The position numbers and the translations under genes are program-made. From a phage: a stretch of DNA of 64,000 nt. The stretch lies in sequence record PZ445489.1; one strand, 5' to 3'. Positions 7,962-37,503 of this stretch are shown here, piece after piece. The notes below the pieces were generated by a model. It was given only the letters and a program-made list of their open reading frames with translations. It did not search any database and was not told the origin of the DNA. Within the stretch, counting starts at the first letter, position 1. Every line of letters begins with the position of its first letter.

Positions 7962-8011
7962 TTACATATCCCAAATACACAAAAAGCCCCATATAGGGGC
8001 TAATTGGTTTC

Positions 8012-8308
8012 TTATCGGCCTACTGGAGAAGCACGATCTAACTCTGATTGGAGGCTAGTCACACGACGGACTTTCTCGACAGGAATAAAACGGAAACTAT
8101 CATTAGTACGAGAGAAGACAAGAATTTCATCATCTTTCGCTTTACGAATACGTTCACGTTTAATACGCTCAGCCAGATATTTATCTTGGGCTGGATCAAA
8201 TTCCATCGTACCCTGAAGGTACGTGGTTCCTTTCTGACGAAGTTTCTCGTAATGAAGATAAAACTCACCAAATTTTTCGCACTGTGCAATAATTTCAGCT
8301 TTAGTCAT
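8012..8308 (-). CDS. hypothetical protein (98 aa)
   Basis: ORF in minus-strand gene series. Confidence 0.5.
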   Translation of the reverse strand: MTKAEIIAQCEKFGEFYLHYEKLRQKGTTYLQGTMEFDPAQDKYLAERIKRERIRKAKDDEILVFSRTNDSFRFIPVEKVRRVTSLQSELDRASPVGR

Positions 8309-8345
8309 AGCTATAGTTCCTTTTGTTGGTGGATTTATCTAAAAA

Positions 8346-8756
8346 TTACTTAGTGATAGCTCGGATTGCTTCTGCCAGATGAGCGGCCGCTTTACCAGTC
8401 AGTTTGTCGATAATTGCATCATCCAGAAAATCTGGTGCTAAGCCAGCATCAGAGAATGCTGCGCGAAGGTCGGCATGGGCTTGAGCTTTGGAGGTACGAG
8501 AACCACCGGAAGCTTTTTCTCCAGTAGATGCGCTAGATTTAGAAGTAGAACCAGCAGCTTTCTTAATATACAAACCTGCTTTAGTCAGCTTCATACGAAA
8601 ACCGTTCGGAGTTACACCATTTTCCTGGGCAATTTCGCTAACAATTTCCATGCTAACACCCGGACGTTCATCCTCTGGGAATTGCTCCATACGAGCAACG
8701 TATTCGGAAGACATTTTTTCGAACAGTTCATCAGTCCACTGAGTTGGAGTAGTCAT
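8346..8756 (-). CDS. hypothetical protein (136 aa)
   Basis: ORF with conserved promoter upstream (minus strand, ~8790-8830). Confidence 0.55.
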   Translation of the reverse strand: MTTPTQWTDELFEKMSSEYVARMEQFPEDERPGVSMEIVSEIAQENGVTPNGFRMKLTKAGLYIKKAAGSTSKSSASTGEKASGGSRTSKAQAHADLRAAFSDAGLAPDFLDDAIIDKLTGKAAAHLAEAIRAITK

Positions 8757-10117: not shown

Positions 10118-12959
10118 CTAGCTCTGACATTGCTTCATCATGCATATGTTTTTCCTCGTCAGTCATGAACTTATAAGGAATTGGCATACACTCGATTTTA
10201 CAATAGGTTCTGTACCAGTCTACAATATTTTCAGTGTTCATATCCTTACCAATACCCATCATACCAAGATACATTCTTGCATATTTTGGGTTAGCACTCT
10301 GACCTGTTTTAAGGAAGAAATCTTTCTTCTTACCTTTCAGAGCTTCTATGAATGGTTTGATAGTGACATTTGAACACTTCTTAATATCTTCCCAGAACAT
10401 CTCGTGCATTTTATGGAAGAATGCCGCTCGATCATTCGGTTTATCCTTGATATACTGTTCAACATGCTCAACTGTTACATCTTTAATAGACTCAAGATGA
10501 TAATAGCGAACAAGAAGTAGTTTAGCTTCATACGCATCCGCATGACGTGGAGCACAATAATCCGGAGTTGAATGTAGAATAGCTTTGATTCGCTCTTCTG
10601 TGTATTCTTTACCAGCACCTTCAATAGTTCCCCAGCTTTCGCTGAAAATATCAATAGTTGCACCCTGATCAAGCAAGTAATAACGTAAAGTACTAGTATA
10701 GTTCCTAGATTCCAGCTCTCTGCGACGTGCGTATAATTGCTGTGCTAACTCCGGCCAACCTTCATCAATATTATATTGCTCAGAACCTGCAGAGAACCCA
10801 CTAGTGGATTTATCAATAAAATAATAGATATTCTGAGCACCACGGTCGCGCCTGATTGCTTGGAAACGCATGTTTGGCGCTTGGTTACTAGTTCTAGTGA
10901 TAACGAATACGTTATCAAAATAGTTGAAGTCAACACCACTCGTTACGGATGGACTACATAATAAGCAATCAATTTGTTGATCAATTAGCTCATTAGTTGT
11001 GTAATCCAGAATACGTCTAATATCTACATCAGATGTAGAGTTTGAGTGGATTTCCTTAACTAACGCACCCGTATTACGACGCAATGCCATGCCCTTCTCA
11101 TTCAGTTCATCTGGACCACAGTCAGATACTAGGATAGATTTCTCACCCATCTCTAGAGAAGTCTGAAGTGCAACCCAAATACTGGACTCATCAGGGAACT
11201 CATAAGCATGAGCTTTTGACAGCATTTTACGGTGATGATTGTAAAATGCAACCGGTTTATCAAACTCAATCAAAGAACCATATGCTTCAATTGTTTCTGC
11301 ACTAATATCCCCATCAGATAATATAATGATTTTTGCAGTTGCAAGAATGTCCCGAAGAACCTGAATACATTCACGACGTTGTTTAACAACCGGGGCGAAT
11401 AATAGGTCATTCATTACAGCGTCACATTCATCGATAAAGATTGCATCAATTTGACCAATAAAACTCTTGAACTTATGCAAAGAGTGAATAGTTGTGGACA
11501 TACGGTCAATAGCACCACGCTTAAAATTAAGCATATCTACAGACTTATCATATTGTCCTGCACTAAATTTCTTAGCATTTGAAGATACCAGTGCTCGAGT
11601 ATTGGTAATTGCTAAGAAATTACCTTTAATAACTCCTGAATCCAGCCAACGCACAACCGCTGTAGTTTTACCTGTACCTAGACTTGCTTTTACAAAAGTC
11701 ATATAACCTTCTGGTGGCACGGTATTTAATTTCAAGAAGTTATCAGTTTCTAGAGAATTAGTTTCTAGCTTTTTAAGTGGAATACCTTTTAAAACATCTG
11801 GTATATCACGTTTAGAATTATTAACAAACGCTTTCAGAGCCTGTTTACGACCGTTGTTAAAATAATCTTGAATATTACGACTATTATCTTTAGTTGCAAT
11901 ATACTCAGATAAAGCTGGGCGGATCTCCTTCTCTAGCCAGCCAAAATCTACACCATCCTCTAGTGCTCGGTGATAGAGTTTAGGAATAATACGTAGATAT
12001 ACACCATCCTCAGCTTCTTCTAATTCGCTGATAGTTTCCTCTACTTTATCAGAGGCAGCTTTTTTACCTTTAATTTGGTCGAGTAAAGAATAGAACTCCT
12101 CCTTAAACTCACCTCTAGTTGTTTCATAGTCAACTAGATTATTAGGTAAATTTACTTTTGAGCCTTTAACAAATACCAGACGTGAAGTACCCTCCGCTTT
12201 AAACGGATCTACTATACCATCAGTAAATAAAGGATCTGCAAAGTAATGGAGCTGTACGGAAGAGTAATAAGCTAAGTCGGCAATATCAAAGCCATACTTT
12301 TGTCTACTACTTTCGTTGATAGATGTAAATAAGAACTTGATTTGACCCTGAGTTACTTTAACATTAGATTCTAGTATTAAGTGCATTCGGATACCTGGTT
12401 TTAGCCCAGCCGAAGATGACGCATGAGCGATAAACCCTGCATCAAGAGGAAACATATCCTCACTAATACTATTTAACATCCTAATAATATGTCGAGCCAT
12501 GCCAACAAGATCAAACTTGTTACAACCTCCTGTATCTACAATACCATCCACATCCATTGCGATTATATGACTTGGATTAGATACATTAAAGTTGCCCTTC
12601 TTACGTCGCACATTATTTTTAGGTGCAAGACATCGACCTCGTACCGCAACGATATGAGGGTCAGACGTTAAACGTCTCATAAGAGGAAGCATTTCTACTA
12701 GGGTTTGAGGATCAACTTCATCAATTACATCAAACTTGAAGGGCATTGAAGCTGGTTTACCTTCAGGATGCTTTGAGGAAAATCTTTTAGCAAAAAGATA
12801 ATCTTCTGCTTTAACTTCTCGCCAATTGCCTGTGGCTAAATCGCGATGAAATCCTGCATGACCTTGTAGGATTGAAAACACAACAATACTCCTGTATTGG
12901 AAATGAAATAAGTTTTCTTTAGGACTATTCAGAAAGAATAGAACAACTGTTACTGTCAA
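10092..12959 (-). CDS. putative replication origin-binding / helicase-like P-loop NTPase (955 aa)
   Basis: Walker A LGTGKTTAV and Walker B-like IFIDECD in central region; large size; position in replication module. Confidence 0.55.
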   Translation of the reverse strand: MTVTVVLFFLNSPKENLFHFQYRSIVVFSILQGHAGFHRDLATGNWREVKAEDYLFAKRFSSKHPEGKPASMPFKFDVIDEVDPQTLVEMLPLMRRLTSDPHIVAVRGRCLAPKNNVRRKKGNFNVSNPSHIIAMDVDGIVDTGGCNKFDLVGMARHIIRMLNSISEDMFPLDAGFIAHASSSAGLKPGIRMHLILESNVKVTQGQIKFLFTSINESSRQKYGFDIADLAYYSSVQLHYFADPLFTDGIVDPFKAEGTSRLVFVKGSKVNLPNNLVDYETTRGEFKEEFYSLLDQIKGKKAASDKVEETISELEEAEDGVYLRIIPKLYHRALEDGVDFGWLEKEIRPALSEYIATKDNSRNIQDYFNNGRKQALKAFVNNSKRDIPDVLKGIPLKKLETNSLETDNFLKLNTVPPEGYMTFVKASLGTGKTTAVVRWLDSGVIKGNFLAITNTRALVSSNAKKFSAGQYDKSVDMLNFKRGAIDRMSTTIHSLHKFKSFIGQIDAIFIDECDAVMNDLLFAPVVKQRRECIQVLRDILATAKIIILSDGDISAETIEAYGSLIEFDKPVAFYNHHRKMLSKAHAYEFPDESSIWVALQTSLEMGEKSILVSDCGPDELNEKGMALRRNTGALVKEIHSNSTSDVDIRRILDYTTNELIDQQIDCLLCSPSVTSGVDFNYFDNVFVITRTSNQAPNMRFQAIRRDRGAQNIYYFIDKSTSGFSAGSEQYNIDEGWPELAQQLYARRRELESRNYTSTLRYYLLDQGATIDIFSESWGTIEGAGKEYTEERIKAILHSTPDYCAPRHADAYEAKLLLVRYYHLESIKDVTVEHVEQYIKDKPNDRAAFFHKMHEMFWEDIKKCSNVTIKPFIEALKGKKKDFFLKTGQSANPKYARMYLGMMGIGKDMNTENIVDWYRTYCKIECMPIPYKFMTDEEKHMHDEAMSELGARNDSEE

Positions 12960-13380
12960 TTTCTCAACAAATTAATCGCAAATACTGAAGGGGGGTGGCA
13001 ACTTCCCCTTTCACGCTACACTGCCGCTTCACTATACCGCACAAATCCTTGAGGATGGCCGCTAAGCCAGATTTGCTCACCTAATGCTTCATGTACTAGC
13101 TCATACTAGATGTAGTATACCTTACGTCATCACTTCTCAGAGTTTTTCACTCTTCCCGTCTCACTTCACAACCACCTCACACTAGGTTGCTTCGAGGCCT
13201 TACCAGGGTTCCTACGGGATGTAGATCGCTAAGTATTCTATTAACTATTTGTTTAAAAACTAACACGTAACAGTTAAAACAACCCTTAATGGGGCAGCCT
13301 AACTGTTCCGTATCGCGGATTGTAAACAAGAAAAATTAGCAAAATCAATTTTTACTAATGTCTCTCAATTCAATATAAAT

Positions 13381-13409
13381 ATTATATCAAGATTTTGGGC
13401 ATCATGCAA
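13381..13409 (-). promoter_or_regulatory. early-type sigma70 promoter (minus strand) upstream of long 5' leader of the 955-aa gene
   Basis: minus strand TTGCAT-17-TATAAT + ATTTATATTGAATTGAGAG leader. Confidence 0.55.
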
Positions 13410-13485
13410 GTAAAATTTTCCGGATGGTGCTATCATTGGTCTTGAGTACGGATAAAACCGAGCCAAAATGACTCGGTTATGTGGA

Positions 13486-13683
13486 TTAGACACTTAAAAT
13501 ACTTCTAATCTCTTCTATATACTTATCTACTTTTTTAGCATCTACTTTATTTAGTTTTCCTATATCAAAACTAGGATCAGTAAACATTCTAGCTATCTCT
13601 ATCTCTAGAGACTTACTAATTTTCCCTGTAGTATTCCACTTAGAAATCTTACCTTTTATTTTCCAAAATTCCTTATTCATCAT
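13486..13683 (-). CDS. hypothetical protein (65 aa)
   Basis: ORF only. Confidence 0.4.
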   Translation of the reverse strand: MMNKEFWKIKGKISKWNTTGKISKSLEIEIARMFTDPSFDIGKLNKVDAKKVDKYIEEIRSILSV

Positions 13684-14065
13684 TTAATCCCGGAACATAT
13701 ATCCCAACACGGTTTAATTGTTCTTTAGCTTCTTTGAGAATATCTGGAGTGTACTCCCAAATATCATCTTCCACCTGTAAAAGATGGGGCGAACAACCAT
13801 CATCAGGCACACGACATATGGCAAAACCACGTGGATGGAACAAAGAGAAATTTAGTGCAACAATTAAACCCATAGCAGACAATTCATTCCAATCCAATTC
13901 CCATTCCCCAGCGTAGCCTGATAGGCAAACACCAATACAGGGATCGTCTATTTGCTGCTCCGGAAAAGTGAAGGAGACTTGTCTTACTCCCAACCAACGT
14001 TGTAGCAGCTTCTCCGCACGTTTCACCAAACTAGGGTCAATCTGACGCCAATATACTTGTTCCAT
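13673..14065 (-). CDS. hypothetical protein, paralog of adjacent 14075..14503 product
   Basis: Shared motifs with neighbour: PCIG, W.EL.EMGL..ALN..LF.P, G(Y/I).PGL. Confidence 0.55.
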   Translation of the reverse strand: MEQVYWRQIDPSLVKRAEKLLQRWLGVRQVSFTFPEQQIDDPCIGVCLSGYAGEWELDWNELSAMGLIVALNFSLFHPRGFAICRVPDDGCSPHLLQVEDDIWEYTPDILKEAKEQLNRVGIYVPGLNDE

Positions 14066-14074
14066 TCTGCCTCC

Positions 14075-14503
14075 TTAAGCAGTTAAACCTGGGATCATAT
14101 ACCCGAAACGTCGAAGTTTCTGAATCCCCTCATTTACTTCTTCCGGTGAGTAAGACCAACCATAACGTTCATTAACCTGAAAACCAGGAGATTCACTAGT
14201 TTTATAGTTAACAACGAGGCGATGCTTAGCAGGCATAAACAGCTTATAGTTTAACGCAAAAACTAAGCCCATTTCATCTAACTCTTTCCAGCCAACAATT
14301 TCTTCAAGACCATCTTCTACCTGCACAATTAAACCAATACAGGGGGCCTCATCAATATCATCTTTAAAAGCAAAGGAGATTTCATTATTCTCACACCATA
14401 TTTTCAGAGCATTAATAGCCTCATTGTACAGGTTGGCTGGAAGAGTATGCCAAAAATTAACCAATATTGGGTTAGCTTCTTTAGAGAATACATTATTGAA
14501 CAT
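14075..14503 (-). CDS. hypothetical protein, paralog of adjacent 13673..14065 product
   Basis: Tandem duplicate, see above. Confidence 0.55.
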   Translation of the reverse strand: MFNNVFSKEANPILVNFWHTLPANLYNEAINALKIWCENNEISFAFKDDIDEAPCIGLIVQVEDGLEEIVGWKELDEMGLVFALNYKLFMPAKHRLVVNYKTSESPGFQVNERYGWSYSPEEVNEGIQKLRRFGYMIPGLTA

Positions 14504-14505
14504 AT

Positions 14506-15012
14506 TTACACCTTAAATTGTTGTAAGGATTTACACATTTCAAGATCTGGGCTAAATTCTAGCATATAGCTAACAGCTTTTAAATCTTGAAGATTTATTC
14601 CAGTTCTACCATTGACTATAACTGTTGGATACTGATACATCATAGCACCAGCGTCATCCAGTACACACCAATGTTTGAGCTTATGCTTTTCAACGAAGCG
14701 AAGAACAGAATTACCCCTAGATAGCCCACCACCAGTAAAATCCGTTGTACCAAGAAAACGATCGATAAGACCTAATCCGGTCATAATCTGAACGTTCTCC
14801 ATCTCATTCCTGACAGAGAACCATGAGGATACTCCAACAATCATTATCGGAGAAGGACGAATAAAGTCCTGAAAAGCCTTGAGAAGCGGTTTGAAAACCC
14901 AGTCACTTCCAAAGAAAATCTTTTCATCATCAGGTGCATGATGGTGGGAGATGCTCGAATTGAGCACCCCATCAATGTCTAGAAAAATAATTGGAGTATT
15001 ACTTATTTCCAT
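14506..15012 (-). CDS. HAD-superfamily phosphatase-like protein
   Basis: N-terminal FLDIDGVL (HAD motif I DxDG), C-terminal VLDDAG. Confidence 0.55.
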   Translation of the reverse strand: MEISNTPIIFLDIDGVLNSSISHHHAPDDEKIFFGSDWVFKPLLKAFQDFIRPSPIMIVGVSSWFSVRNEMENVQIMTGLGLIDRFLGTTDFTGGGLSRGNSVLRFVEKHKLKHWCVLDDAGAMMYQYPTVIVNGRTGINLQDLKAVSYMLEFSPDLEMCKSLQQFKV

Positions 15013-15181
15013 TTTTGTTCCTTTCTAAGAACGTATCATACTCAACCGTATTCACATATATAACACCATAGTCATCGGATTTATAGTCCATTTCCCACAA
15101 CTCACAGCGATAGTACCAACTACCGTCCGCCCATACAAATATATCATCAGGGTGTGTATACACAGATTTAATTATGGACAT
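14999..15181 (-). CDS. hypothetical protein (60 aa)
   Basis: ORF only. Confidence 0.4.
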   Translation of the reverse strand: MSIIKSVYTHPDDIFVWADGSWYYRCELWEMDYKSDDYGVIYVNTVEYDTFLERNKNGNK

Positions 15182-15996
15182 ATTTGTTTCCCTGGCATAT
15201 AAGGTCTACCCTCTAGATGAGCTTCTACACGAGCAATAAAATCAGGGTCACTAAAAGCATCTACCGCACCTTTACTCCAGTAAGGAATACCACGATCTTC
15301 CAACTGGTACATCTCACTACGAGTCATACCTTGATAGCCCGGTTCTGCCGCTAGGGCACTATCGTAGTAGTTAACTACCATTAATTTGGCAGCAGTCAAA
15401 TTAAGAACAGGAAATAATTCCCAGTAGAAGTTAATTACTTGGTTAGAACAACCAACCACAATGATCATATCTTGACTGGTAATATCATCAAAAACATTGT
15501 ACATTTCTGTATATGCTGGAGCATGCTCACCAAAGAAGATTACATTAGGTTTAACCCATTTATAATCATCTGGGTCAATAGAGCTATACCCAACATCAAT
15601 AATTCGTTTATTACTACTATTGTAGCTGTCAGCTACAACAACCTCTTTTAAATATCCGTGAATGTGCAGAATGTCACTATGTGGAACGCCAGCACGTTCA
15701 ATAAGGTCATCAACATTGGTAGTCAAGTTTACTACTTGACCTGGATATTGTTTATACCATTCACCAATACGCAAATGTGCAAGATTGGGTTCAACAGTTT
15801 TTAGCTCTTCACGACGCTTGTTGTAAAACATATGGGTTTTATGATAAAAATTACCACGAAAGGCATGAATATTACATACTTCTTCTAGATTATAATCATC
15901 CCACAATGCTTTACCACTAGCAGTATCAGTACGAAAAGCTCGTACACCACTTTCAACACTCAAACCCGCACCGCTAATAATAATTAATCTACGCAT
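15172..15996 (-). CDS. Sir2/CobB-family NAD-dependent deacylase-like protein
   Basis: ISGAGLSVESGVRAFR (GAGIS..SGIPxFR), NxAHxxI, NVDDLIERAG...HIHGYL (catalytic His), PNVIFFGE, IIVVGCS motifs line up with CobB as recalled. Confidence 0.7.
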   Translation of the reverse strand: MRRLIIISGAGLSVESGVRAFRTDTASGKALWDDYNLEEVCNIHAFRGNFYHKTHMFYNKRREELKTVEPNLAHLRIGEWYKQYPGQVVNLTTNVDDLIERAGVPHSDILHIHGYLKEVVVADSYNSSNKRIIDVGYSSIDPDDYKWVKPNVIFFGEHAPAYTEMYNVFDDITSQDMIIVVGCSNQVINFYWELFPVLNLTAAKLMVVNYYDSALAAEPGYQGMTRSEMYQLEDRGIPYWSKGAVDAFSDPDFIARVEAHLEGRPYMPGKQICP

Positions 15997-16210
15997 TTTT
16001 CACCTGTTCTCTGAAGTTTTGCCCAATACTGTCTAATAGCTCAGCTAATTCTTTATTGCCTTTCTCCATTAAGGTGTTAGCAATAACTTCTAGCATAGTA
16101 GCGCAGGATTCAACCCCATCCTTATAGCCAGTTTCCCAGTGCTGCATTAATGCGTTTTCCAAAGCGGCGTTTAAACCCTTATCTGGTAGCATCGGCTTCG
16201 AGAATGCCAT
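15989..16210 (-). CDS. hypothetical protein (73 aa)
   Basis: ORF only. Confidence 0.45.
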   Translation of the reverse strand: MAFSKPMLPDKGLNAALENALMQHWETGYKDGVESCATMLEVIANTLMEKGNKELAELLDSIGQNFREQVKNA

Positions 16211-16382
16211 AAAGTTTCTCCTCTAGTTCCATAACACGATTTTCATAAGAGGCACGCAACTTTTCAATTGCCAGTGCACGCACTGTAACCTCATTAGAAT
16301 TAATAGCTAACTGGGCCAGATCTTCTGTTTCCATACGTCCGTTGTAAATTAAGCGATATTTAAGATGTTTTACGTTTTTCAT
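16179..16382 (-). CDS. hypothetical protein (67 aa)
   Basis: ORF only. Confidence 0.45.
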   Translation of the reverse strand: MKNVKHLKYRLIYNGRMETEDLAQLAINSNEVTVRALAIEKLRASYENRVMELEEKLYGILEADATR

Positions 16383-16391
16383 TCTTGTTCC

Positions 16392-16673
16392 TTAGTTCTG
16401 TACTGTAAATTCATTCTTATCACAGTGAGCATAATAATACCCATACATACGATAAATTTTCACAGCCTTAGTAGACCCCTTCGATTCTTCATAATCAATC
16501 CAGAGCCACTTGTCTTTACCTACATAATGTACCCGAAACTTCTTAGCTTTCTTATCATTCCATGTTGCAACAACACGACGATAATCAAATCCGCCCAACC
16601 AATCTAGAGCCTTACGTTCTTCACTAGGCTCTCCAAGATGGGAGACATCTACTTTAGGAAGCAATTCGCTCAT
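16392..16673 (-). CDS. hypothetical protein (93 aa)
   Basis: ORF with conserved promoter upstream (minus, ~16690-16735). Confidence 0.5.
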   Translation of the reverse strand: MSELLPKVDVSHLGEPSEERKALDWLGGFDYRRVVATWNDKKAKKFRVHYVGKDKWLWIDYEESKGSTKAVKIYRMYGYYYAHCDKNEFTVQN

Positions 16674-16737
16674 AGCTTTCTCCTCTCAAATTTATAAATC
16701 TATTATATATAAATTTTTGGCTGAAAGCAAATAAAAT

Positions 16738-16770
16738 AAAAGCCAGGTCGACTAGCAACCCGGCTGATTA
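16738..16770 (-). terminator. hairpin + T-rich tail downstream of nrdD (minus strand)
   Basis: AGCCAGG...CCCGGCT stem followed on minus strand by TTTTATTTTATTT. Confidence 0.45.
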
Positions 16771-18647: not shown

Positions 18648-18756
18648 TATACTCTCCTTCTCTAACTAAGACTACTATTATAACTCATTCGAGGGCGGAT
18701 GTCAACAATATTTTACTATAAAGTTCTGTAACATGATCTGAGTCAAAAAATTTTAT

Positions 18757-18785
18757 TTGCCAATCTCTATTAAAAATTGTATAAT
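18757..18785 (+). promoter_or_regulatory. sigma70-type promoter (first of two tandem promoters upstream of phoH)
   Basis: TTGCCA-17-TATAAT. Confidence 0.55.
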
Positions 18786-27963: not shown

Positions 27964-28665
27964 ATGAAAGTAAAACCATTTGGTATGCTAGATATTGAAT
28001 CTCTAGGAACTCCGGGAGATTGTGGTACTACTCATATTGTAATGCCTTCTTTCGCTTTTGTGGCTATGCATGGGATTGATAAAGACCCTGATCTAGTGTT
28101 TGTTACTTTAGATGTACAAGATCAGCTTAATTCTGGAGCTAAAGTTACGGCATCTACTCTAGCATTCTGGATGGATCAAGCTAAACATAGCCCGTCTGCT
28201 ATCCACATTATGGAAGCTATGAAGGAACGTAATCCAAAACTGATTGCCTTCCAAAATGGTAAACATCATTGCACTAATAAACTCGGCTCTAACTATGCTG
28301 CCTTCTCTATGGCTAAAAACATTATGGAATTGGCTCTAGGCGACAATGCTTTGTACTATGGCAATGGCCCAGAGTTTGATATGACTATCTACTCTGCAAA
28401 TACGTTCCATGCTGGAACCAATGAAGAGGTAGTTCCGTGGAAATTCTGGAATTTGGGCAATGTTCGATCTCTTCGTAATCTCTGGATGCAAGCTGGATAC
28501 AGTTATAAGGCTCTAGAGACCGAAGGTATTAGCTGGGCAATAGCTAAAATGGAGAAGATGGACACTATTCGTTATGGGATCTATCCGGTTAAGCATGATC
28601 CTGCATTTGATGCCTTAGTTGAAAGCTATTGTGTTGCAGCTATGATCGAAAAAATGAAAATTTGA
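27964..28665 (+). CDS. putative DEDD-type 3'-5' exonuclease
   Basis: N-terminal FGMLDIESLG (exo motif I D.E), C-terminal H..AFDA (motif III-like). Confidence 0.45.
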   Translation: MKVKPFGMLDIESLGTPGDCGTTHIVMPSFAFVAMHGIDKDPDLVFVTLDVQDQLNSGAKVTASTLAFWMDQAKHSPSAIHIMEAMKERNPKLIAFQNGKHHCTNKLGSNYAAFSMAKNIMELALGDNALYYGNGPEFDMTIYSANTFHAGTNEEVVPWKFWNLGNVRSLRNLWMQAGYSYKALETEGISWAIAKMEKMDTIRYGIYPVKHDPAFDALVESYCVAAMIEKMKI

Positions 28666-32356: not shown

Positions 32357-32431
32357 CGGGGTGTAGTCTAAGGGAGAGGCAGGAGTCTTCTAAATTCCTT
32401 TATGCAGGTTCGAATCCTGTCACCTCGGCCA
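32357..32431 (+). tRNA. tRNA-Arg (anticodon UCU)
   Basis: Acceptor CGGGGTG/CACCTCG, anticodon stem GGAGU/AUUCC loop CUUCUAA, T-arm GCAGG-TTCGAAT-CCTGT, encoded CCA. Confidence 0.7.
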
Positions 32432-32465
32432 ATTTTATTAACTGTAACTAAAACAAAGGAAATAT

Positions 32466-33413
32466 ATGTTTAATACTAAAAATATGAAAGAACTGACTTC
32501 TGAGCAGAAAGTAATTCGTACTATTAAACGTTGGGGTATTGGTGCTGTAGTTGGTTTAGCAGGCTTGATTCTAGCCTTTAATTCATATACTATTGTTTCT
32601 GATGGTACGGTTAAAACCCAAACATTTCTGGGTAAAGTAGATCCTAACCCAGTATTACCAGGTTTCCATCTTGTAAACCCATTTGCATCTTTCGACACTT
32701 TTAGTACAAAAGATATTGCTGTAAAATTAGATAAACTTCAGGTTCCTAGCCAGGATAAGTTTAAATCCACTGTTGACCTGACTGTTATGTTGCAGTTTGA
32801 TGGTTCTAAGGCACCAATTAACCGTATTAACGCAGGTACTCAGGATCAAGCGTTAGACAAATATGTAACTGAAAAATTACTGTCTACTATTCGTGAGTTT
32901 GGTAAGTCTGTACCTAAAGCACAAGATTTGTTTGATGCTAAAATTCAGGCTCAATTGCAAACTGCAATTCAACAGGAAGTTGAAGAGTATGCACGCCCAT
33001 ATGGTTACACAGTTAAGCAGGTATTCCTTCAGGATATTACTTTGCCACCGGTAATCATGGAACAGGTACAGAATACCAAAGTTCGTGAAGAACAGGTTAA
33101 TGCTGCTAAAGCTGAATTAGCTCGTGTTGAACAGGAAGCACAGCAAAAAGTTAAACAAGCAGAAGCAGATCGTGAAGCTCGCAACAACCAAGCTATCGCT
33201 AATGAACGTGACGCAGATGCTAAACTGTACGCAGCTAAGAAAGAAGCTGAAGCTAACGCCGCACTGCAACGTACCATTACTCCTGAGATGATTCGTTGGA
33301 AACAACTGGAAGTCGAAATGATTCGTGCTCAGAAATATCAAGGTGGTGTACCACAGACTGTGGTAGGTACTGGCTACGATGGTCAAATGATCATGGATAT
33401 GCGTAATAAATAA
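32466..33413 (+). CDS. SPFH/band-7 (prohibitin/HflK-like) membrane protein
   Basis: N-terminal TM segment, SPFH-like core, C-terminal Ala/Glu/Gln-rich coiled coil. Confidence 0.6.
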   Translation: MFNTKNMKELTSEQKVIRTIKRWGIGAVVGLAGLILAFNSYTIVSDGTVKTQTFLGKVDPNPVLPGFHLVNPFASFDTFSTKDIAVKLDKLQVPSQDKFKSTVDLTVMLQFDGSKAPINRINAGTQDQALDKYVTEKLLSTIREFGKSVPKAQDLFDAKIQAQLQTAIQQEVEEYARPYGYTVKQVFLQDITLPPVIMEQVQNTKVREEQVNAAKAELARVEQEAQQKVKQAEADREARNNQAIANERDADAKLYAAKKEAEANAALQRTITPEMIRWKQLEVEMIRAQKYQGGVPQTVVGTGYDGQMIMDMRNK

Positions 33414-33437
33414 TATCCGCATGTAACATCTGAAGTA

Positions 33438-33476
33438 AGCCCTGCGTTCCCTGGAGAGCGCAGGGCTTTTCTTTTA
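33438..33476 (+). terminator. rho-independent terminator
   Basis: AGCCCTGCG...CGCAGGGCT hairpin + TTTTCTTTT. Confidence 0.6.
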
Positions 33477-33486
33477 TCTTAAATAC

Positions 33487-33526
33487 AGAAAAGCCCCTAA
33501 GTCTTTCGACTAGGGGCTTTATTGTT
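33487..33526. terminator. bidirectional rho-independent terminator
   Basis: AAAAGCCCCTAAGTCTTTCGACTAGGGGCTTTATTGTTT: GC stem flanked by A-run and T-run. Confidence 0.6.
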
Positions 33527-33737
33527 TGGTTCTTCAGAACCACACTCTCGGTGTACAGCAACCACCCATACGGGAGGCCAATCTTGACTGAAAATCTACT
33601 CTAGGGGGCAGGATAAGAGTAGGCTTAAAGGCAAAGGGATTGAACGCCGGTATTTGTGTAAACATTGCTGGAGAGCAACAACGTGCTACAGGCATTGGGC
33701 AGCACGAAACAGGTTTTCTGCAACACATAATTTCTCC

Positions 33738-34154
33738 TTAGGAGTTATTACCACCATTTTGAGCTTTTGCAACTTGGCTTTGGCAGAAGCTATTAAACTT
33801 ACCCATAAGTGATACAAGCTGCTTCCCATCCTCTGTCTTTGCGAAGTCTTCGAAAAGGGCTAGTACTGCCTGTCCTTCCGCAGAAACCTGCGGTTGTTGG
33901 GTTTGCTGCTGAACTTGCTGCTGCGGCATCTGTTGTTGCATTTGTTGAGGCATTTGCGACTGCCCGCTCATTTGCTGCATCATTTGCATAGGACTCACAC
34001 TTCCAGGGTTTTGCTGGAGTTGTTGTTGCATCTGTTGCGCTTCTGCTAAACGCTGTTGCAATTGTTGTAAGTAGGGGTTATCCAGACCCGGAATGGGCTG
34101 CTGGGAGCCCATACTTTGATTAAGTCCGTTATTTACAAAACCATATTTACTCAT
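33738..34154 (-). CDS. glutamine-rich low-complexity protein (138 aa)
   Basis: ORF; long Q/M/P runs. Confidence 0.5.
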   Translation of the reverse strand: MSKYGFVNNGLNQSMGSQQPIPGLDNPYLQQLQQRLAEAQQMQQQLQQNPGSVSPMQMMQQMSGQSQMPQQMQQQMPQQQVQQQTQQPQVSAEGQAVLALFEDFAKTEDGKQLVSLMGKFNSFCQSQVAKAQNGGNNS

Positions 34155-34175
34155 AATGGGCTCCTCCCCTTAATA

Positions 34176-35158
34176 TTAAGCCGGCAGTTTAGCCTGCAGA
34201 CCAGCCAGAGTCTGAGTGATAGCACCAAGACTTACAGCGATTTGATTAATTACCTGACCGTTAGCACCGTTACCCGCAGCGATTGCTTCACGTAGGCGAC
34301 ATGCATCTAACTCATCCTGAATACGAGCAGTAGTTACACCAGCGATAGCAGTCTGAAGTTCACAGCAACATTCAGCGATCTGACGTTCCAGAGAGTTCTG
34401 GTTAGCACACATCTGAGCCTGAACAGCGGCAAACTGGTTATTAGTTTGTAAAGTCTGCTGGAAAGCGATCTGTGCAGAATCAAACTTATCTTGTGCACGA
34501 GCTATCTGATTAGCTGCGAAAGATTGATCAATCTGGCGAGAAAGATCGAACTGACCCTGAATAACGTTGCGAGTTTCCTGACAGATCTGATTAGACAGAT
34601 TAGCACCTGTACCATAGATCGTAGTTAGTACAGACTGAGTATCACGGCTCTGGTTTTGGGATGTCTGGCTAAACCCATTGTTAACTGCGCTTAAAACAGC
34701 TCCAGTACCCTGGTTAGCTTCTGTACGAGTAGTGTTAATAGCTGCTAGAATACTAGCGGTATCTTGGTTCTGAAGTACTGCATCAACTGCGGTACCATCA
34801 CCAACTACACCACGTCCACCGAATCCACCGAAACCACCGAATCCGCCTGTTAATAGAGCACCGATTAGGATAGCTCCGAATAGTCCCATACCTTCACCAC
34901 CGAAAGCACCTGCGTTTGCTGGGTAACCACCCAGTAGGCCAGGGAAGCCACTAGTAAATACGTTTACTGGTTCTTGCATTTTATGTTTTCCATATTTATG
35001 ACAATGTTCATCGTCATCTTCTTCATCATCGTGTTCACGATGTTTTTCTTCGTAGGCTCTGACCTTCTCCCACTTTTTCTTATCTGATTCCTCGTGACGG
35101 TGCAGTTCTGCTGCAACGCTAGCGACGGTCTCAGGACTCTTAGCTACTTCTTCTGTCA
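34176..35158 (-). CDS. glycine-zipper membrane protein with His/acidic N-terminus and Q/N/A-rich C-terminal region
   Basis: AGGAGGTG RBS then ATG at 35158-35156; GLFGAILIGALLTGGFGGFGGFGG segment. Confidence 0.5.
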
Positions 35159-35365
35159 TTTTTGACACCTCCTAGTATATAGAAAATGTGTGTCTCTTTG
35201 ATCACTCATCCATAACATATACTTTACACTACCCCAGCGAAAATGTCAAGGGGTCTTTAAAAATTGCCCCTGAATTTTTAGTGGGGTCACAAATTTTGGT
35301 CCTCACCACTTATCTGCTATCCTTAAGTGCCCTATGATTTTCCTCTAAAAAGTTAAAAAATTTGA

Positions 35366-35394
35366 TTGCTTGAATGCTAAATTCTCTGTATAAT
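35366..35394 (+). promoter_or_regulatory. early-type promoter
   Basis: AAAAATTTGATTGCTT-17-TATAAT + ATATCTATAAATTTGAAAGAGG. Confidence 0.55.
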
Positions 35395-35424
35395 ATATCT
35401 ATAAATTTGAAAGAGGAACCAAAT

Positions 35425-35943
35425 ATGAATGTTGATGAGCTAACACAGCACCTCTTATCTAGAGGATTTGATACAGATAAATATCATTGCTGGTTAAGTC
35501 CGGAAGGATGGCTAACAGTCCCGTTGTATGACTTCTCTGGGATGTTGAGGGGCTATCAAACTTATAATCCTTCTGCTCCAAAAGGTCATGGTAAGTGCCC
35601 CTTTGAAGCTAAATACTTTACTTATTCTACTACCCAGTGTGTATGGGGACTAGAAACTCTCAATGGAGATGAAAAAGTAGTATTGATTGCTGAATCTGTA
35701 TTTAAGGCAGTTGCGTTACATAATGCTGGTTATCCAGCCCTAGCAATGTTGGGTTCTTCTCCAGGAAAAGCGTTATTAAAGCAACTGAAATTACTACCTT
35801 TTAAATTGGTAGCTGTCGGAGATAATGATCCTGCGGGTGAAAAATTTGCTAGAAAATTAAACGGCTTTGTTTCTCCCGTAGATGTGGATGAGATGTCTAC
35901 CGAAAACTTGAAAAATTTTCTTGCTATGAAGCTAAATTTCTAA
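35425..35943 (+). CDS. standalone Toprim-domain protein
   Basis: VVLIAESVFKAV (Toprim Glu) and LVAVGDNDPAGEKFA (DxD) motifs; ATG 35425 with GAAAGAGGAA RBS. Confidence 0.55.
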   Translation: MNVDELTQHLLSRGFDTDKYHCWLSPEGWLTVPLYDFSGMLRGYQTYNPSAPKGHGKCPFEAKYFTYSTTQCVWGLETLNGDEKVVLIAESVFKAVALHNAGYPALAMLGSSPGKALLKQLKLLPFKLVAVGDNDPAGEKFARKLNGFVSPVDVDEMSTENLKNFLAMKLNF

Positions 35944-35964
35944 TATAATATATCTTATAAATTC

Positions 35965-36053
35965 GGAAGAATAGCATAACGGTATTGCAGCAGATTGCTA
36001 ATCTGTCGGTTTGAAATATAGCCTTGTGGGTTCGATTCCCGCTTCTTCCGCCA
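35965..36053 (+). tRNA. tRNA-Ser (GCU), type II
   Basis: Acceptor GGAAGAA/TTCTTCC, anticodon loop TTGCTAA, long variable arm, T-arm GTGGG-TTCGATT-CCCGC, CCA. Confidence 0.75.
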
Positions 36054-36059
36054 AATTCT

Positions 36060-36137
36060 GGTTCTCAAGCTCATATGGTATGAGCACCCGGCTCATAACC
36101 GGAAGGTACGTAGGTTCGAATCCTCGGGGAGCCACCA
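36060..36137 (+). tRNA. tRNA-like, anticodon CAU (Met/Ile2), imperfect T stem
   Basis: Acceptor GGTTCTC/GGGAGCC (2 GU), D stem GCTC/GAGC, anticodon loop CTCATAA, T loop TTCGAAT with 2 mismatches in stem. Confidence 0.45.
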
Positions 36138-36156
36138 AATTAAATAGAGGTCACAA

Positions 36157-36345
36157 ATGGATCTATATATAGTTTATGTTGTGTTTATCCAAGATAGAGA
36201 ATACCCGGATGAATATAAAAAAGGATATAGGTTAGCCAGAGCTACCTCTGAAGCCCAAGCTATGGATAAAGTGGCAGATTATATGATTACGGTAGAAAAC
36301 ATACACTATATCGACTACCTTGAAGCCTCAAAAGTAATTGACTAA
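36157..36345 (+). CDS. hypothetical protein (62 aa)
   Basis: ORF. Confidence 0.4.
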   Translation: MDLYIVYVVFIQDREYPDEYKKGYRLARATSEAQAMDKVADYMITVENIHYIDYLEASKVID

Positions 36346-36354
36346 GGAGACTAT

Positions 36355-36540
36355 ATGTCTAAGTTTCAAGAACTCAAGCAAGAGCTAGAAGAATGTGCCT
36401 GCCCTGAGTGTAGAGGAATTGGTGAAAGTTCTGATGCAGAAGCAGGAGATACTTTTTGCAATATCTGGGTTTGCCCAAATTGCAATGGTACAGGTATTAA
36501 TCCTAACTGTGGTATTTCCCTAGATATTGAACGAGGATAA
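36355..36540 (+). CDS. small zinc-ribbon protein (61 aa)
   Basis: CACPEC...CPNCNG. Confidence 0.45.
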   Translation: MSKFQELKQELEECACPECRGIGESSDAEAGDTFCNIWVCPNCNGTGINPNCGISLDIERG

Positions 36541-36641
36541 TACCTGTAAAACTAAAAGATTATTATATTGGTTGGTTTGTGGGACTAGTAGTAGGATTTT
36601 CACTAGGCTATAATATGTATCAACTAATAAACTGATTACAC

Positions 36642-36718
36642 GGGGGTGTAATCGAATTGGCATAGGTACTGGACTTAAAATTCAGGTTTTGTGGGTTCGA
36701 ATCCCACCACCCCTACCA
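36642..36718 (+). tRNA. tRNA-like, anticodon UAA (Leu-type anticodon on short-variable-arm scaffold), atypical D arm
   Basis: Acceptor GGGGGTG/CACCCCT, anticodon stem CTGGA/TTCAG loop CTTAAAA, T-arm GTGGG-TTCGAAT-CCCAC, disc A, CCA. Confidence 0.5.
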
Positions 36719-36893
36719 AACTAAGGAAATAAGATGTATAGACATCCACCTCCGCCAACACGTCGTTCTAGAGAAGTTATCCTCATGGAATTGACTAAAA
36801 ACTTCAAGGCAACTCTTGAAGATAGAGATCTAGGTACAGATGAAGACGTTGATTTCATTTGTAAACTATTAAAAATGAAGCTGGAGAAACATC

Positions 36894-37100: not shown

Positions 37101-37130
37101 CTCCTCCAAACAGAATTTTTAAAAATGTAC

Positions 37131-37160
37131 TTGCCTTTTGCTTTAAATTTCTGATATAAT
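37131..37160 (+). promoter_or_regulatory. early-type promoter
   Basis: TTGCCT-18-TATAAT. Confidence 0.5.
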
Positions 37161-37190
37161 AGTTGTATAAATTGATGAAGGAGTTAACGA

Positions 37191-37466: not shown

Positions 37467-37503
37467 CTAATACAGCACTGAGCAAGTTCTTTAAAATTTG
37501 ACT

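What the first reader, a model, noticed from the sequence alone, without database searches (positions are those of the whole stretch)
13486..16673. Sir2-like NAD-dependent enzyme in an operon with a HAD phosphatase and tandem paralogous small proteins
Between nrdD and the origin-binding gene lies a block of nine small minus-strand genes. It includes a clear Sir2/CobB-family protein (15172-15996; GAGLSVESGVRAFR, HIHGY, VIFFGE, VVGCS), apparently without the usual Zn-ribbon cysteines, followed by a HAD-family phosphatase-like protein (14506-15012) and two paralogs of unknown function. Sir2 domains are NAD+ consumers in many anti-phage systems; a phage-encoded Sir2 with an adjacent phosphatase could manipulate host NAD+/ADP-ribose pools, modify host proteins, or counter a defence.
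Basis: partly seen in the sequence, partly recalled or inferred. Interest (0 to 1): 0.6.

Follow-up and report, generated by a model that had tools for sequence, protein, structure and literature searches.

The report
Known T5 sirtuin–phosphatase early operon
This is the well-conserved early-gene cluster of T5-like phages that encodes a zinc-less sirtuin next to a small phosphatase. The gene pair has already been annotated and described in the literature, but its biochemical function, possibly tRNA/RNA repair, has never been tested.

Summary
Window 13486-16673 (minus strand) holds nine tightly packed ORFs between nrdD and the origin-binding gene. They include a 274-aa sirtuin (Pfam SIR2 E=2e-25), a 168-aa HAD phosphatase (HAD_SAK_2 E=4e-20) and two DUF7415 paralogs (31% identity). 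The window is a T5-like phage, and the block equals T5 genes T5.100-T5.107.

The sirtuin keeps every NAD-binding and catalytic residue and the class III Tyr/Arg pair. Its model folds like E. coli CobB and SIRT5. The whole phage clade lacks the Zn cysteines and has lost the Gln of TQNxD.

None of this is new:
- T5 Sir2 has been annotated since the T5 genome was published.
- Zn-less phage sirtuins were described in 2016.
- Iyer et al. (2022) describe the sirtuin plus "Swiss-army-knife" HAD neighbourhood of T5-like phages and predict a Tpt1/KptA-like RNA-repair role.

My survey supports an RNA/tRNA link. In rV5/Mydo-like phages the sirtuin sits in an operon with RNA ligase, cREC and a kinase. In a jumbo phage it is flanked by a 2H protein and a Nudix-cREC fusion. 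On one viral contig the sirtuin and HAD lie inside a tRNA array.

The link is not proven. T5-likes lack an RNA ligase, the proteins are acidic, and the HAD is absent in Sugarland-like relatives. A protein deacylase role remains a serious rival.

The parts
16741..16765 (-). Terminator-like hairpin just after the nrdD stop codon; upstream boundary of the block
   Evidence: Scan (10-bp stem, 6 GC pairs, T-tail). Sequence. T5 annotates a terminator at the same place.
16702..16730 (-). Promoter-like site TTGCTT-17 nt-TATAAT, followed by the RBS GAGAGGAG and the ATG at 16673
   Evidence: Read directly from the sequence. It falls below the scan threshold because only 3 of 6 positions match in the -35 hexamer. 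T5 and S114 annotate a promoter in the equivalent gap.
16392..16673 (-). 93-aa ORF of unknown function (phrog_7953)
   Evidence: A homolog (41% identity) sits next to nrdD in the divergent contig L005.
16179..16382 (-). 67-aa ORF of unknown function (phrog_5236)
15989..16210 (-). 73-aa ORF of unknown function (phrog_5827); overlaps the Sir2 start by 8 nt
15172..15996 (-). 274-aa phage-clade sirtuin (equivalent to T5.102): Zn-less, class III-like, catalytic residues intact
   Evidence: Pfam SIR2 E=2e-25. Best PDB sequence match is CobB 1s5p, E=1e-17. AF2 model pLDDT 90.4. Best Foldseek matches are CobB, Sir2Af1 and SIRT5. Invariant residues are listed.
14999..15181 (-). 60-aa ORF of unknown function (phrog_5116) between Sir2 and HAD; overlaps both
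   Evidence: T5 and S114 have two small ORFs in this position.
14506..15012 (-). 168-aa HAD-superfamily phosphatase of the HAD_SAK_2 family (equivalent to T5.105)
   Evidence: Pfam E=4e-20. Invariant FLDIDGVLN, SSWF, GGxxRG and DD motifs in 15 homologs. Mis-annotated as 'Sir2' in RefSeq/PHROGs.
14075..14503 (-). 142-aa DUF7415 protein (equivalent to T5.106), with two matched stretches to the 53-residue DUF7415 model
13673..14065 (-). 130-aa DUF7415 paralog (equivalent to T5.107)
   Evidence: Pfam E=4e-32. 31% identity to the 142-aa paralog, E=1e-20.
13486..13683 (-). 65-aa ORF (phrog_29527); a variable accessory gene present only in some T5-like phages
   Evidence: Full-length DNA matches occur only in AZ23, AZ21, KS_S14 and a few others.
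13456..13478 (-). Weak terminator-like hairpin (AACCGAG/CTCGGTT, 9-nt loop, then TTTATC); downstream boundary of the block
   Evidence: Read from the sequence. T5 annotates a terminator after T5.107.

Best explanation
SHOWN: the block is the T5-type early operon T5.100-T5.107. It has its own promoter after the nrdD terminator. Its two recognisable enzymes are (i) a member of a phage-specific, Zn-less branch of class III (CobB/SIRT5-like) sirtuins with an intact NAD+ site and catalytic His, and (ii) a small HAD phosphatase of the HAD_SAK_2 family with an intact DxD catalytic core.

INFERRED (most likely function, first proposed by Iyer et al. 2022): the two enzymes form an NAD+-dependent RNA-end healing module that protects tRNAs (phage and host) from host ribonuclease defences. 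Metal-independent anticodon nucleases leave 2',3'-cyclic phosphate, 2'-phosphate or 3'-phosphate ends. The HAD would remove terminal phosphates, or dephosphorylate ADP-ribose-phosphate by-products. The sirtuin would use NAD+ to accept an RNA 2'-phosphate and release nicotinamide. That reaction is chemically parallel to Tpt1/KptA and to the first step of sirtuin deacylation. Because T5-like phages carry no RNA ligase, sealing would be left to a host enzyme such as RtcB; this step is an inference from general knowledge and was not tested.

The DUF7415 pair and the small ORFs are accessory and of unknown role. Identity of the parts: confidence about 0.95. The RNA-repair mechanism: about 0.4.
For: Identity.

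Context evidence:
- In rV5 the order is Rnl1 (RNA_lig_T4_1), cREC, Sir2, MazG, with overlapping or abutting genes. A PNK-like AAA_33 kinase and a metallophosphoesterase lie beside them and tRNA genes within 6 kb.
- Mydo has metallophosphoesterase ... Rnl, cREC, kinase, one small ORF, then Sir2.
- In the Yersinia jumbo phage a 2H (Acb1-like) protein lies about 0.7 kb upstream of Sir2, and a Nudix-cREC fusion follows it directly.
- In my survey of 59 IMG/VR loci, 11 Mydo-, rV5- and pEa55-like loci have Rnl1, a kinase and a metallophosphoesterase within 4 kb on the same strand, and 8 of the 11 also have a detectable cREC.

HAD-Sir2 linkage:
- It survives rearrangement. T5-likes have Sir2 then HAD. 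The divergent contigs L005 and L007 have nrdD, HAD, small ORF(s), Sir2.
- In L070 both genes sit inside an 11-tRNA array on the same strand.
- 2 of 51 bacterial HAD_SAK_2 loci also carry a Sir2 within 2 kb.

Other points:
- The clade differs from canonical peptide deacylases at hallmark substrate-side positions. TQNxD is T(T/A)NVD throughout. GTSxxVxP is GCSNQVI(N/D)F in the T5/rV5 subclade. The Zn cysteines are gone.
- No Macro-domain partner was seen next to the sirtuin in any locus examined.
- The window carries 23 tRNA genes, and T5-like phages are known targets of tRNA-cleaving defences (titles/abstracts of PMC11555353 and PMC11464382).
- The prediction itself is published in PMC9503650.
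Against: - No biochemical or genetic data exist for any member; nothing was found in six literature searches on phage sirtuins.
- T5-like phages have no Rnl1-type ligase, cREC or PNK-like kinase (tblastn of the window). Only 14 'Salmonella' records are among the 822 phage records with Rnl1, against ~270 Salmonella T5-likes.
- The sirtuin (pI 5.4, net charge -10; family median -12), the HAD (pI 5.7) and DUF7415 (pI 4.7) are all acidic, which is unusual for RNA-binding enzymes.
- The sirtuin retains everything a deacylase needs, including the SIRT5/CobB Tyr-x-x-Arg pair for acidic acyl groups.
- The HAD is missing in Sugarland-like T5 relatives, which keep Sir2 plus DUF7415 x2. HAD homologs also occur without an adjacent Sir2: next to Prs/NAPRTase in Serratia phage ChuuTotoro, and in T4-like phages. 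The pair is therefore not obligatory.
- NadV/Prs genes also recur near Sir2, which fits any NAD+-consuming role.
Confidence: 0.4

Rival explanations
1. The sirtuin is a genuine NAD+-dependent protein lysine deacylase, CobB/SIRT5-like and probably preferring acidic acyl groups such as succinyl or malonyl. It would reset the acylation state of host or phage proteins early in infection. The HAD and DUF7415 genes would be unrelated neighbours.
For: - The closest sequence and fold relatives are E. coli CobB, Sir2Af1 and SIRT5.
- NCBIfam hits are all CobB-type deacylase models.
- Invariant residues include the GAGxS...FR loop, N94/D96, H113, FFGE, and the Y58/R61 pair that in SIRT5 (Y102/R105) and CobB (Y92/R95) binds the acyl carboxylate (residue roles are from general knowledge).
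- The protein is acidic like CobB.
- This is the standard annotation and the reading favoured in PMC5107563.
- The HAD is dispensable in some lineages.
Against: - Scores lie far below every CobB equivalog cut-off (about 90-100 bits against 221-395).
- The Zn module cysteines, which shape the peptide cleft, are lost. The universal Gln of TQNxD is lost, and in this subclade so is the Pro of VxP.
- The hosts already encode CobB.
- Repeated operonic linkage to RNA ligase, cREC, kinase, 2H and HAD has no obvious deacylase rationale.
Confidence: 0.3
2. The module works on small NAD+/ADP-ribose-derived molecules rather than on macromolecules. It would process or detoxify ADP-ribose derivatives or immune signals, or take part in NAD+ turnover and salvage, with the HAD acting as a nucleotide or ADP-ribose-phosphate phosphatase.
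For: - A HAD_SAK_2 homolog in Serratia phage ChuuTotoro is directly followed by Prs-like and NAPRTase genes, a NARP1-like pair.
- NadV, Prs or NadM genes lie within 2-8 kb of Sir2 in Mydo-like phages, in L069 and L071, and in the Yersinia jumbo phage.
- A 2H protein about 0.7 kb upstream of the jumbo-phage sirtuin matches the anti-CBASS Acb1 family, E=2.6e-17.
- A bacterial MoxR-vWA locus combines HAD_SAK_2, a metallophosphoesterase, Sir2 and an ADP-ribosylglycohydrolase.
- T5-like phages are known to invest in NAD+ restoration (NARP3, PMC13464706).
Against: - No NadV, Prs, NadR or PnuC gene turned up in this window; the check covered Mydo Prs by tblastn and ten of the larger unassigned ORFs by Pfam, not every ORF.
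- No sirtuin is known to act on free ADP-ribose derivatives.
- A net NAD+ consumer is counter-productive for a phage facing NAD+-depleting defences.
- Proximity to NAD+ salvage genes is expected for any NAD+-using enzyme.
Confidence: 0.15
3. The sirtuin is an ADP-ribosyltransferase, SirTM-like or DNA/protein-directed, that modifies a host target. The neighbouring genes are unrelated.
For: Some sirtuins ADP-ribosylate proteins (general knowledge, summarised in PMC9503650). Early expression fits host take-over. Loss of the Zn module and of the Gln indicates altered chemistry.
Against: No Macro or other reversing partner was seen in any of the loci examined. The fold and sequence are closest to class III deacylases, not to SirTM. 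Iyer et al. place this clade apart from the ADP-ribosylating viral sirtuins.
Confidence: 0.08

Closest known systems
Bacteriophage T5 genes T5.100-T5.107 (T5.102 Sir2-like, T5.105, T5.106, T5.107)
   Same: Same position (nrdD to origin-binding gene), same order and same proteins; the HAD is 98.8% identical. The same annotated terminator-promoter upstream and terminator downstream are present. The block is found in 446 phage records.
   Different: The window has one small ORF between Sir2 and HAD where T5 has two. It has three small ORFs upstream where T5 has two. It also has an extra 65-aa ORF at the 3' end.
'Type 3' phage sirtuin neighbourhood of Iyer, Burroughs, Anantharaman & Aravind 2022 (Escherichia phage SP15; PMC9503650 section 3.7.3)
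   Same: [quoted passage not shown] SP15 proteins appear among the closest homologs. This is exactly the pairing the finding reports.
   Different: Nothing substantive. I add three points: the HAD is optional (Sugarland-like phages), the DUF7415 pair accompanies Sir2 in most Demerecviridae, and the gene order is inverted in divergent relatives.
E. coli CobB / human SIRT5 (class III sirtuin deacylases)
   Same: Rossmann domain plus small-domain fold (TM 0.7-0.85). GAGxS...FR loop, Asn/Asp, catalytic His, FGE and the Tyr-x-x-Arg pair are shared.
   Different: No Zn-binding cysteines. Gln of TQNxD is replaced by Thr. Pro of VxP is replaced by Asn/Asp. Scores lie far below CobB equivalog cut-offs. 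The substrate is unknown.
Tpt1/KptA RNA 2'-phosphotransferase
   Same: Proposed analogous reaction: NAD+ accepts an RNA 2'-phosphate and nicotinamide is released. Comparable genomic company of RNA ligase, cyclic phosphodiesterase and kinase in rV5- and Mydo-like phages (PMC9503650).
   Different: No homology: Tpt1 has an ADP-ribosyltransferase-type fold and this protein is a Rossmann-fold sirtuin. Tpt1 is basic (general knowledge) and this protein is acidic. The activity is untested.
T4 polynucleotide kinase/phosphatase (phosphatase domain) and multidomain 'Swiss Army Knife' RNA repair proteins
   Same: HAD-superfamily DxDxT-type phosphatase core. The Pfam family HAD_SAK_2 is defined from RNA-repair proteins.
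   Different: Here it is a stand-alone 168-aa protein with no kinase or ligase domain. No PDB sequence relative was detectable. The substrate is unknown.

Membership tests
Sirtuin / SIR2 superfamily (PF02146) | Profile match above the curated threshold | tested here: met
   90.2 bits against a cut-off of 24, E=2e-25, covering profile positions 1-178 of 180.
Sirtuin / SIR2 superfamily (PF02146) | NAD+-binding GAGxS...SGIxxFR loop, Asn and Asp of the (T)QNxD motif, and the catalytic His of the HG motif | tested here: met
   G9-A10-G11, S13, S16-G17, F21-R22, N94, D96 and H113-G114 are invariant in 44 homologs. H113 aligns with the CobB HMHG histidine.
Sirtuin / SIR2 superfamily (PF02146) | Two-domain fold: Rossmann domain plus small domain | tested here: met
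   AF2 pLDDT 90.4, pTM 0.88. Foldseek against CobB gives E=3e-17, TM 0.71-0.85.
Canonical sirtuins (classes I-IV, U) | Zn-ribbon with four cysteines (two CxxC pairs) in the small domain | tested here: not met
   No Cys between H113 and K149 in this protein. Only 1 of 44 family members has two or more Cys there. The beta-ribbon itself is still predicted with high confidence.
Canonical sirtuins (classes I-IV, U) | Gln of the TQNxD motif and Pro of the GxSxxVxP motif | tested here: not met
   T93 is invariant, giving TTNVD. The second motif reads V187-I188-(N34/D10)-F190. KVP40-like and jumbo-phage members keep the Pro but also lack the Gln.
Class III sirtuins (CobB / SIRT5) | Tyr-x-x-Arg pair (SIRT5 Y102/R105, CobB Y92/R95) that recognises acidic acyl groups | tested here: met
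   F57-Y58-N-K-R61-R62 is present, with Y58 and R61 invariant. It aligns with CobB FYNARR. The role of these residues is from general knowledge.
CobB orthologs (NCBIfam equivalogs) | Score above the equivalog cut-off | tested here: not met
   Best scores are 100.5 and 89.7 bits against cut-offs of 243 and 320.
Sirtuin enzymatic activity | NAD+-dependent deacylation or ADP-ribosyl transfer | not testable with these tools
   Needs biochemistry. No published assay was found for any phage member.
Defence-type SIR2 NADases (ThsA, DSR1/2, SIR2-HerA, SIR2-APAZ) | Match to defence-system SIR2 profiles, and association with a sensor or partner domain | tested here: not met
   No PADLOC hit at E<=0.01 for any of the nine proteins. 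The protein is stand-alone at 274 aa, and no HerA, TIR or pAgo gene is nearby.
HAD superfamily, HAD_SAK_2 (PF18143) | Profile match plus catalytic motifs I-IV (DxD nucleophile/acid, Ser/Thr, Lys/Arg, acidic pair) | tested here: met
   73 bits against a cut-off of 27.5. D12-I-D14, S62-S63, R99 and D119-D120 are invariant in 15 homologs that are 37-88% identical to the window protein.
Phage sirtuin-centred RNA-repair neighbourhood, type 3 (Iyer et al. 2022) | Distinct-clade phage sirtuin in a conserved neighbourhood with a SAK-like HAD phosphatase | tested here: met
   The genes are 160 nt apart in the same operon. The pairing is conserved in all 30 T5-like IMG/VR loci that have the HAD and in rearranged form in L005, L007 and L070.
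Complete RNA heal-and-seal system (T4 Pnkp+Rnl1 type, or Trl1+Tpt1 type) | RNA ligase and 5'-kinase encoded together with the end-healing enzymes | tested here: not met
   tblastn of the 64-kb window finds no Rnl1, cREC or PNK-like kinase homolog. Rnl1 is essentially absent from T5-like phage records. Only 64 kb of a ~110-kb genome was searched directly.
Phage NAD+ reconstitution pathways (NARP1/2/3) | Prs-like/Namat, NadV/NadM, or PnuC/NadR gene pair | tested here: not met
   tblastn with Mydo Prs found nothing in the window. Ten of the larger unassigned ORFs gave no NadR, PnuC or NadV Pfam hits. The check is partial: NadV, NadR and PnuC were not used as direct queries, and not every ORF was scanned.

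The most novel reading that the evidence does not exclude
The phage-clade sirtuin is not a protein deacylase. It is a nucleic-acid-directed sirtuin, a non-homologous analog of Tpt1/KptA that uses NAD+ to remove RNA 2'-phosphates (or otherwise processes damaged tRNA ends). It works with the SAK-type HAD phosphatase, and possibly the DUF7415 proteins, as a ligase-less tRNA-rescue module that depends on a host sealing enzyme. This would be the first sirtuin shown to act in RNA repair, and a new counter-defence against anticodon nucleases present in about 1000 sequenced phages. The idea is already in print as a prediction, so only its demonstration would be new.
Probability: 0.3. Interest if true: 0.7.

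Novelty: already known. Interest (0 to 1): 0.3.

Why it matters
About 1000 phage genomes carry this Zn-less sirtuin, including T5-, rV5-, phi92- and KVP40-like phages and jumbo phages. No activity has been measured for any of them. If the RNA-repair prediction is right, it would add a new chemistry to the sirtuin family and a new phage answer to tRNA-cleaving immunity. That immunity is known to target T5-like phages, which already counter it with their own tRNA genes. If the sirtuin is instead a deacylase, it would show that phages rewrite host protein acylation. For the genome scan itself, the finding is a correct re-discovery of an annotated gene pair that has already been discussed in the literature. 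It also exposes a propagated annotation error: the HAD is labelled 'Sir2' in RefSeq and PHROGs.

Tried and rejected
- **Defence-type SIR2 NADase.** Rejected: no PADLOC match, and the fold is closest to CobB/SIRT5.
- **Function for DUF7415.**
  - A profile search of 1.84 billion representatives found only 47 relatives. Two have informative fusions, one thymidylate-kinase-like and one ASCH/DUF3850; these hint at nucleotides or nucleic acids but prove nothing.
  - The AFDB50 fold library was unavailable.
- **DUF7415 or HAD next to Sir2 in other groups.** Neither was found next to Sir2 in KVP40-like or phi92-like phages. Only a shared DUF7275/DUF7277 protein about 3 kb upstream turned up.
- **DUF7415 near HAD in T4-like phages.** The T5 record notes suggested this for Aeh1. 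It was not detected in the two T4-like loci examined.
- **HAD structure relatives by sequence.** No PDB hit with the single sequence or with the profile.
- **RNA ligase, cREC, kinase, Prs, NadR and PnuC in the window.** Absent in the searches run.
- **Structured RNA in the block and the downstream 400-nt leader.** No Rfam match. The folding z-score of -1.8 is unremarkable.
- **Experimental work on phage sirtuins.** Six literature searches on phage sirtuins found only annotation-level or computational papers.
- **Small ORFs of L005/L007 as divergent DUF7415.** The alignment shows no real similarity.

Full report
**What the window is.** The 3.2-kb region matches 446 phage records. The best are Escherichia and Salmonella T5-like phages: AZ23 at 95% over the full length and oldekolle at 98.5% over 94%. 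RefSeq classifies oldekolle in Demerecviridae, genus Tequintavirus. In phage T5 itself the same block is T5.100-T5.107, lying between nrdD (T5.099) and the replication-origin-binding gene (T5.108). Within it, T5.102 is annotated as Sir2, T5.105 is the HAD, and T5.106 and T5.107 are the paralogs. T5 annotates a terminator and promoter upstream of the block and a terminator downstream.

**Check of the observation.** Nine minus-strand ORFs occupy 16673-13486. Neighbouring ORFs overlap by 8-32 nt or are separated by 2-9 nt.
- A terminator-like hairpin follows nrdD at 16765-16741.
- Then come TTGCTT-17 nt-TATAAT at 16730-16702, an RBS, and the first ATG.
- After the last ORF there is a weak hairpin at 13478-13456.
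- All nine ORFs match PHROG families.
- Pfam assigns SIR2 to the 274-aa protein (E=2e-25), HAD_SAK_2 to the 168-aa protein (E=4e-20), and DUF7415 to the 142- and 130-aa proteins.
- The two DUF7415 proteins are 31% identical, E=1e-20. Each gives two matched stretches to the 53-residue DUF7415 model.

The 65-aa ORF at the 3' end is a variable accessory gene.

**The sirtuin.**
- The best PDB sequence match is E. coli CobB, E=1e-17.
- An AlphaFold2 model built from 44 homologs has pLDDT 90.4. It superposes best on CobB, Sir2Af1 and SIRT5, the class III sirtuins.
- Invariant across the 44 homologs are the GAGxS...SG..FR loop, N94 and D96, H113-G114, KPxVxFFxE, GxS and N209. Also invariant are Y58 and R61 in FYNKRR. 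These are the counterparts of the Tyr/Arg pair that recognises acidic acyl groups in SIRT5 and CobB (residue roles from general knowledge).
- The clade is nevertheless derived. It has no Zn cysteines. The universal Gln of TQNxD is Thr here (Ala in KVP40-like and jumbo-phage members). In the T5/rV5/phi92 subclade the Pro of GxSxxVxP is Asn or Asp.
- Scores are far below CobB equivalog cut-offs.
- There is no match to defence-system SIR2 models.
- Homologs occur in 1007 phage records, spanning T5-, rV5-, Mydo-, phi92- and KVP40-like phages and jumbo phages.

**The HAD.** Fifteen homologs, 37-88% identical to the window protein, keep FLDIDGVLN, SSWF, GGxxRG and DD invariant. The phosphatase core therefore looks active. 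No PDB relative is detectable by sequence. RefSeq and PHROGs label this protein 'Sir2 (NAD-dependent deacetylase)'. That label is an error, although a few records call it an 'RNA repair protein'.

**DUF7415.**
- Only 47 relatives exist among 1.84 billion representative proteins.
- Rare fusions are to a thymidylate-kinase-like domain and to an ASCH/DUF3850 domain.
- The proteins are very acidic, pI 4.7.

The function stays unknown.

**What is already published.**
- Skliros et al. 2016 (PMC5107563) discuss phage Sir2/CobB proteins that lack the Zn ligand, and list T5 among the carriers.
- Iyer, Burroughs, Anantharaman and Aravind 2022 (PMC9503650, section 3.7.3) define a distinct viral sirtuin clade with three conserved neighbourhoods:
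  1. 2H, Nudix, cREC and PIN in jumbo phages.
  2. T4-like RNA ligase, cREC, kinase, MazG and a calcineurin-like phosphoesterase in rV5 and Mydo.
  3. [quoted passage not shown]
- They propose that the sirtuin acts like KptA/Tpt1 and removes RNA 2'-phosphates.
- I found no experimental test of this.

**Independent test of the context.** I verified types 1 and 2 directly.
- rV5 has Rnl1, cREC, Sir2 and MazG as a tight operon. A PNK-like AAA_33 kinase and a metallophosphoesterase lie alongside, and tRNA genes are nearby.
- Mydo has the same set.
- A Yersinia jumbo phage has a 2H (Acb1-like) protein about 0.7 kb upstream of Sir2 and a Nudix-cREC fusion directly after it, downstream of NadM and NadV.

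A survey of 59 IMG/VR loci carrying this sirtuin gave the following:
- 30 T5-like loci have HAD 0.6-1.1 kb and DUF7415 1.1-1.6 kb downstream of Sir2.
- 3 Sugarland-like loci have Sir2 plus two DUF7415 genes but no HAD.
- 11 Mydo-, rV5- or pEa55-like loci have the RNA ligase, kinase and phosphoesterase set; 8 of them also have a detectable cREC.
- Several phi92-like loci have only a DUF7275 protein upstream. The same protein family lies upstream of Sir2 in a KVP40-like phage.
- Several loci showed none of the families searched within 8 kb of Sir2.

Further contexts:
- In two divergent T5-like metagenomic contigs the order is inverted: nrdD, HAD, small ORF(s), Sir2, with no DUF7415.
- On contig L070 the sirtuin and a HAD_SAK_2 gene both sit inside an array of 11 tRNA genes on the same strand.
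- Among 51 bacterial loci with a stand-alone HAD_SAK_2 relative, two carry a Sir2 within 2 kb. One is in a MoxR-vWA conflict-system locus, together with a metallophosphoesterase and an ADP-ribosylglycohydrolase.

So the HAD-sirtuin link is real and recurs in different arrangements, but it is not obligatory.

**Weighing the mechanisms.**

For an RNA/tRNA-end function:
- the repeated operonic company of RNA-repair enzymes;
- the tRNA-array context;
- the absence of a Macro partner in the loci examined;
- the altered substrate-side motifs;
- the 23 tRNA genes in this window;
- the known pressure of tRNA-cleaving defences on T5-like phages.

Against it:
- T5-likes carry no RNA ligase, cREC or PNK-type kinase. 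Sealing would have to be done by the host, which is an inference.
- All three recognisable proteins are acidic.
- The sirtuin keeps the full deacylase toolkit, including the Tyr/Arg pair.
- HAD homologs also occur without Sir2, once next to a Prs/NAPRTase pair.
- NAD+ salvage genes recur near Sir2, which fits any NAD+-consuming role.

I rate the RNA-repair reading at about 0.4, a protein deacylase at 0.3, small-molecule NAD/ADPR metabolism at 0.15, and an ADP-ribosyltransferase at below 0.1.

**Verdict.** But the cluster is the long-annotated T5 early operon, and both of its notable features are already in the literature: the Zn-less sirtuin and the sirtuin-HAD pairing. The open, testable question is the enzyme's substrate. 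Interest as a scan finding is low to moderate (0.3), and the novelty class is 'already known'.

Noticed in passing
window 14506-15012 (-); L001 4832-5338; L012 3501-4007: The HAD_SAK_2 phosphatase is labelled 'Sir2 (NAD-dependent deacetylase)' in RefSeq records of T5, oldekolle, S114 and many others. The label traces to phrog_18062, a 92-aa family that is really the C-terminal half of the HAD. This is a propagated annotation error.
   Followed up: yes
window 12960-13410 (-): After the block there is a promoter-like site (TTGCAT-17 nt-TATAAT, about 13410-13375). It is followed by a ~400-nt relatively GC-rich stretch with no ORF, ahead of the origin-binding gene. T5 annotates a promoter and a ~470-nt gap in the same place. 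There is no Rfam match, and the RNA folding z-score is only -1.8. It could be a long leader, a regulatory RNA, or an origin-related region.
   Followed up: partly
L070 6535-14559 (IMG/VR contig IMGVR_UViG_3300043120_000090): On an 86-kb viral contig the sirtuin (8001-8708, 46% identical) and a HAD_SAK_2 gene (11075-11602) are interspersed with 11 tRNA genes on the same strand. This is a context not mentioned in the 2022 survey.
   Followed up: partly
L066 7771-9762 (also L063, L067): Sugarland-like T5 relatives have nrdD, a small ORF, Sir2, a small ORF, then two DUF7415 genes, with no HAD at all. The DUF7415 pair therefore tracks the sirtuin more faithfully than the phosphatase does in this family.
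   Followed up: partly
L081 2891-9611 (Prevotellaceae MAG CADCBZ010000005.1): A bacterial MoxR-vWA conflict-system locus carries HAD_SAK_2, a metallophosphoesterase, a Zn-ribbon protein, a sirtuin with a single Cys in its Zn-module region (canonical TQNVD and VYP motifs kept), and an ADP-ribosylglycohydrolase in a row. This looks like a cellular counterpart of the phage enzyme set.
   Followed up: partly
L008 1820-2761 and L009 2099-2860: A DUF7277/DUF7275 protein lies about 3 kb upstream of the sirtuin in both phi92-like (ESCO5) and KVP40-like (phi-pp2) phages, and in five IMG/VR loci. This recurrent association has no known function.
   Followed up: no
L006 8001-11217 (Serratia phage vB_SmaM-ChuuTotoro): A HAD_SAK_2 homolog (39% identical) is directly followed by a Prs-like gene and an NAPRTase gene, which resembles the NARP1 NAD+ reconstitution pair. 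This suggests the phosphatase may also be tied to NAD+/ADP-ribose metabolism.
   Followed up: no
window 32357-44467 (+): An array of 23 tRNA genes is interspersed with small ORFs, typical of T5-like phages.
   Followed up: no
window 54184-55059 and 55348-55938 (+): Two adjacent calcineurin-like metallophosphoesterases. The region of the second (tblastn hit at 55360-55830) is weakly similar (E=1.5e-5) to the Mydo phosphoesterase, whose rV5 homolog likewise lies in the RNA ligase/cREC/sirtuin neighbourhood.
   Followed up: partly
window 18677-18705 (-) and 18757-18785 (+): A perfect consensus sigma-70 promoter (TTGACA-17 nt-TATAAT) points into nrdD. An 11/12 match points the other way toward the phoH-like gene. 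Together they form a divergent early promoter pair.
   Followed up: no
window 27964-28665 (+): A 233-aa ORF matches the Rv2179c-like 3'-5' exoribonuclease domain (E=1e-7).
   Followed up: no
window 13486-13683 (-): A 65-aa lysine-rich ORF (phrog_29527) is appended to the 3' end of the operon in this phage and a few relatives (AZ23, AZ21, KS_S14). No ORF is annotated at this position in T5 or oldekolle.
   Followed up: partly
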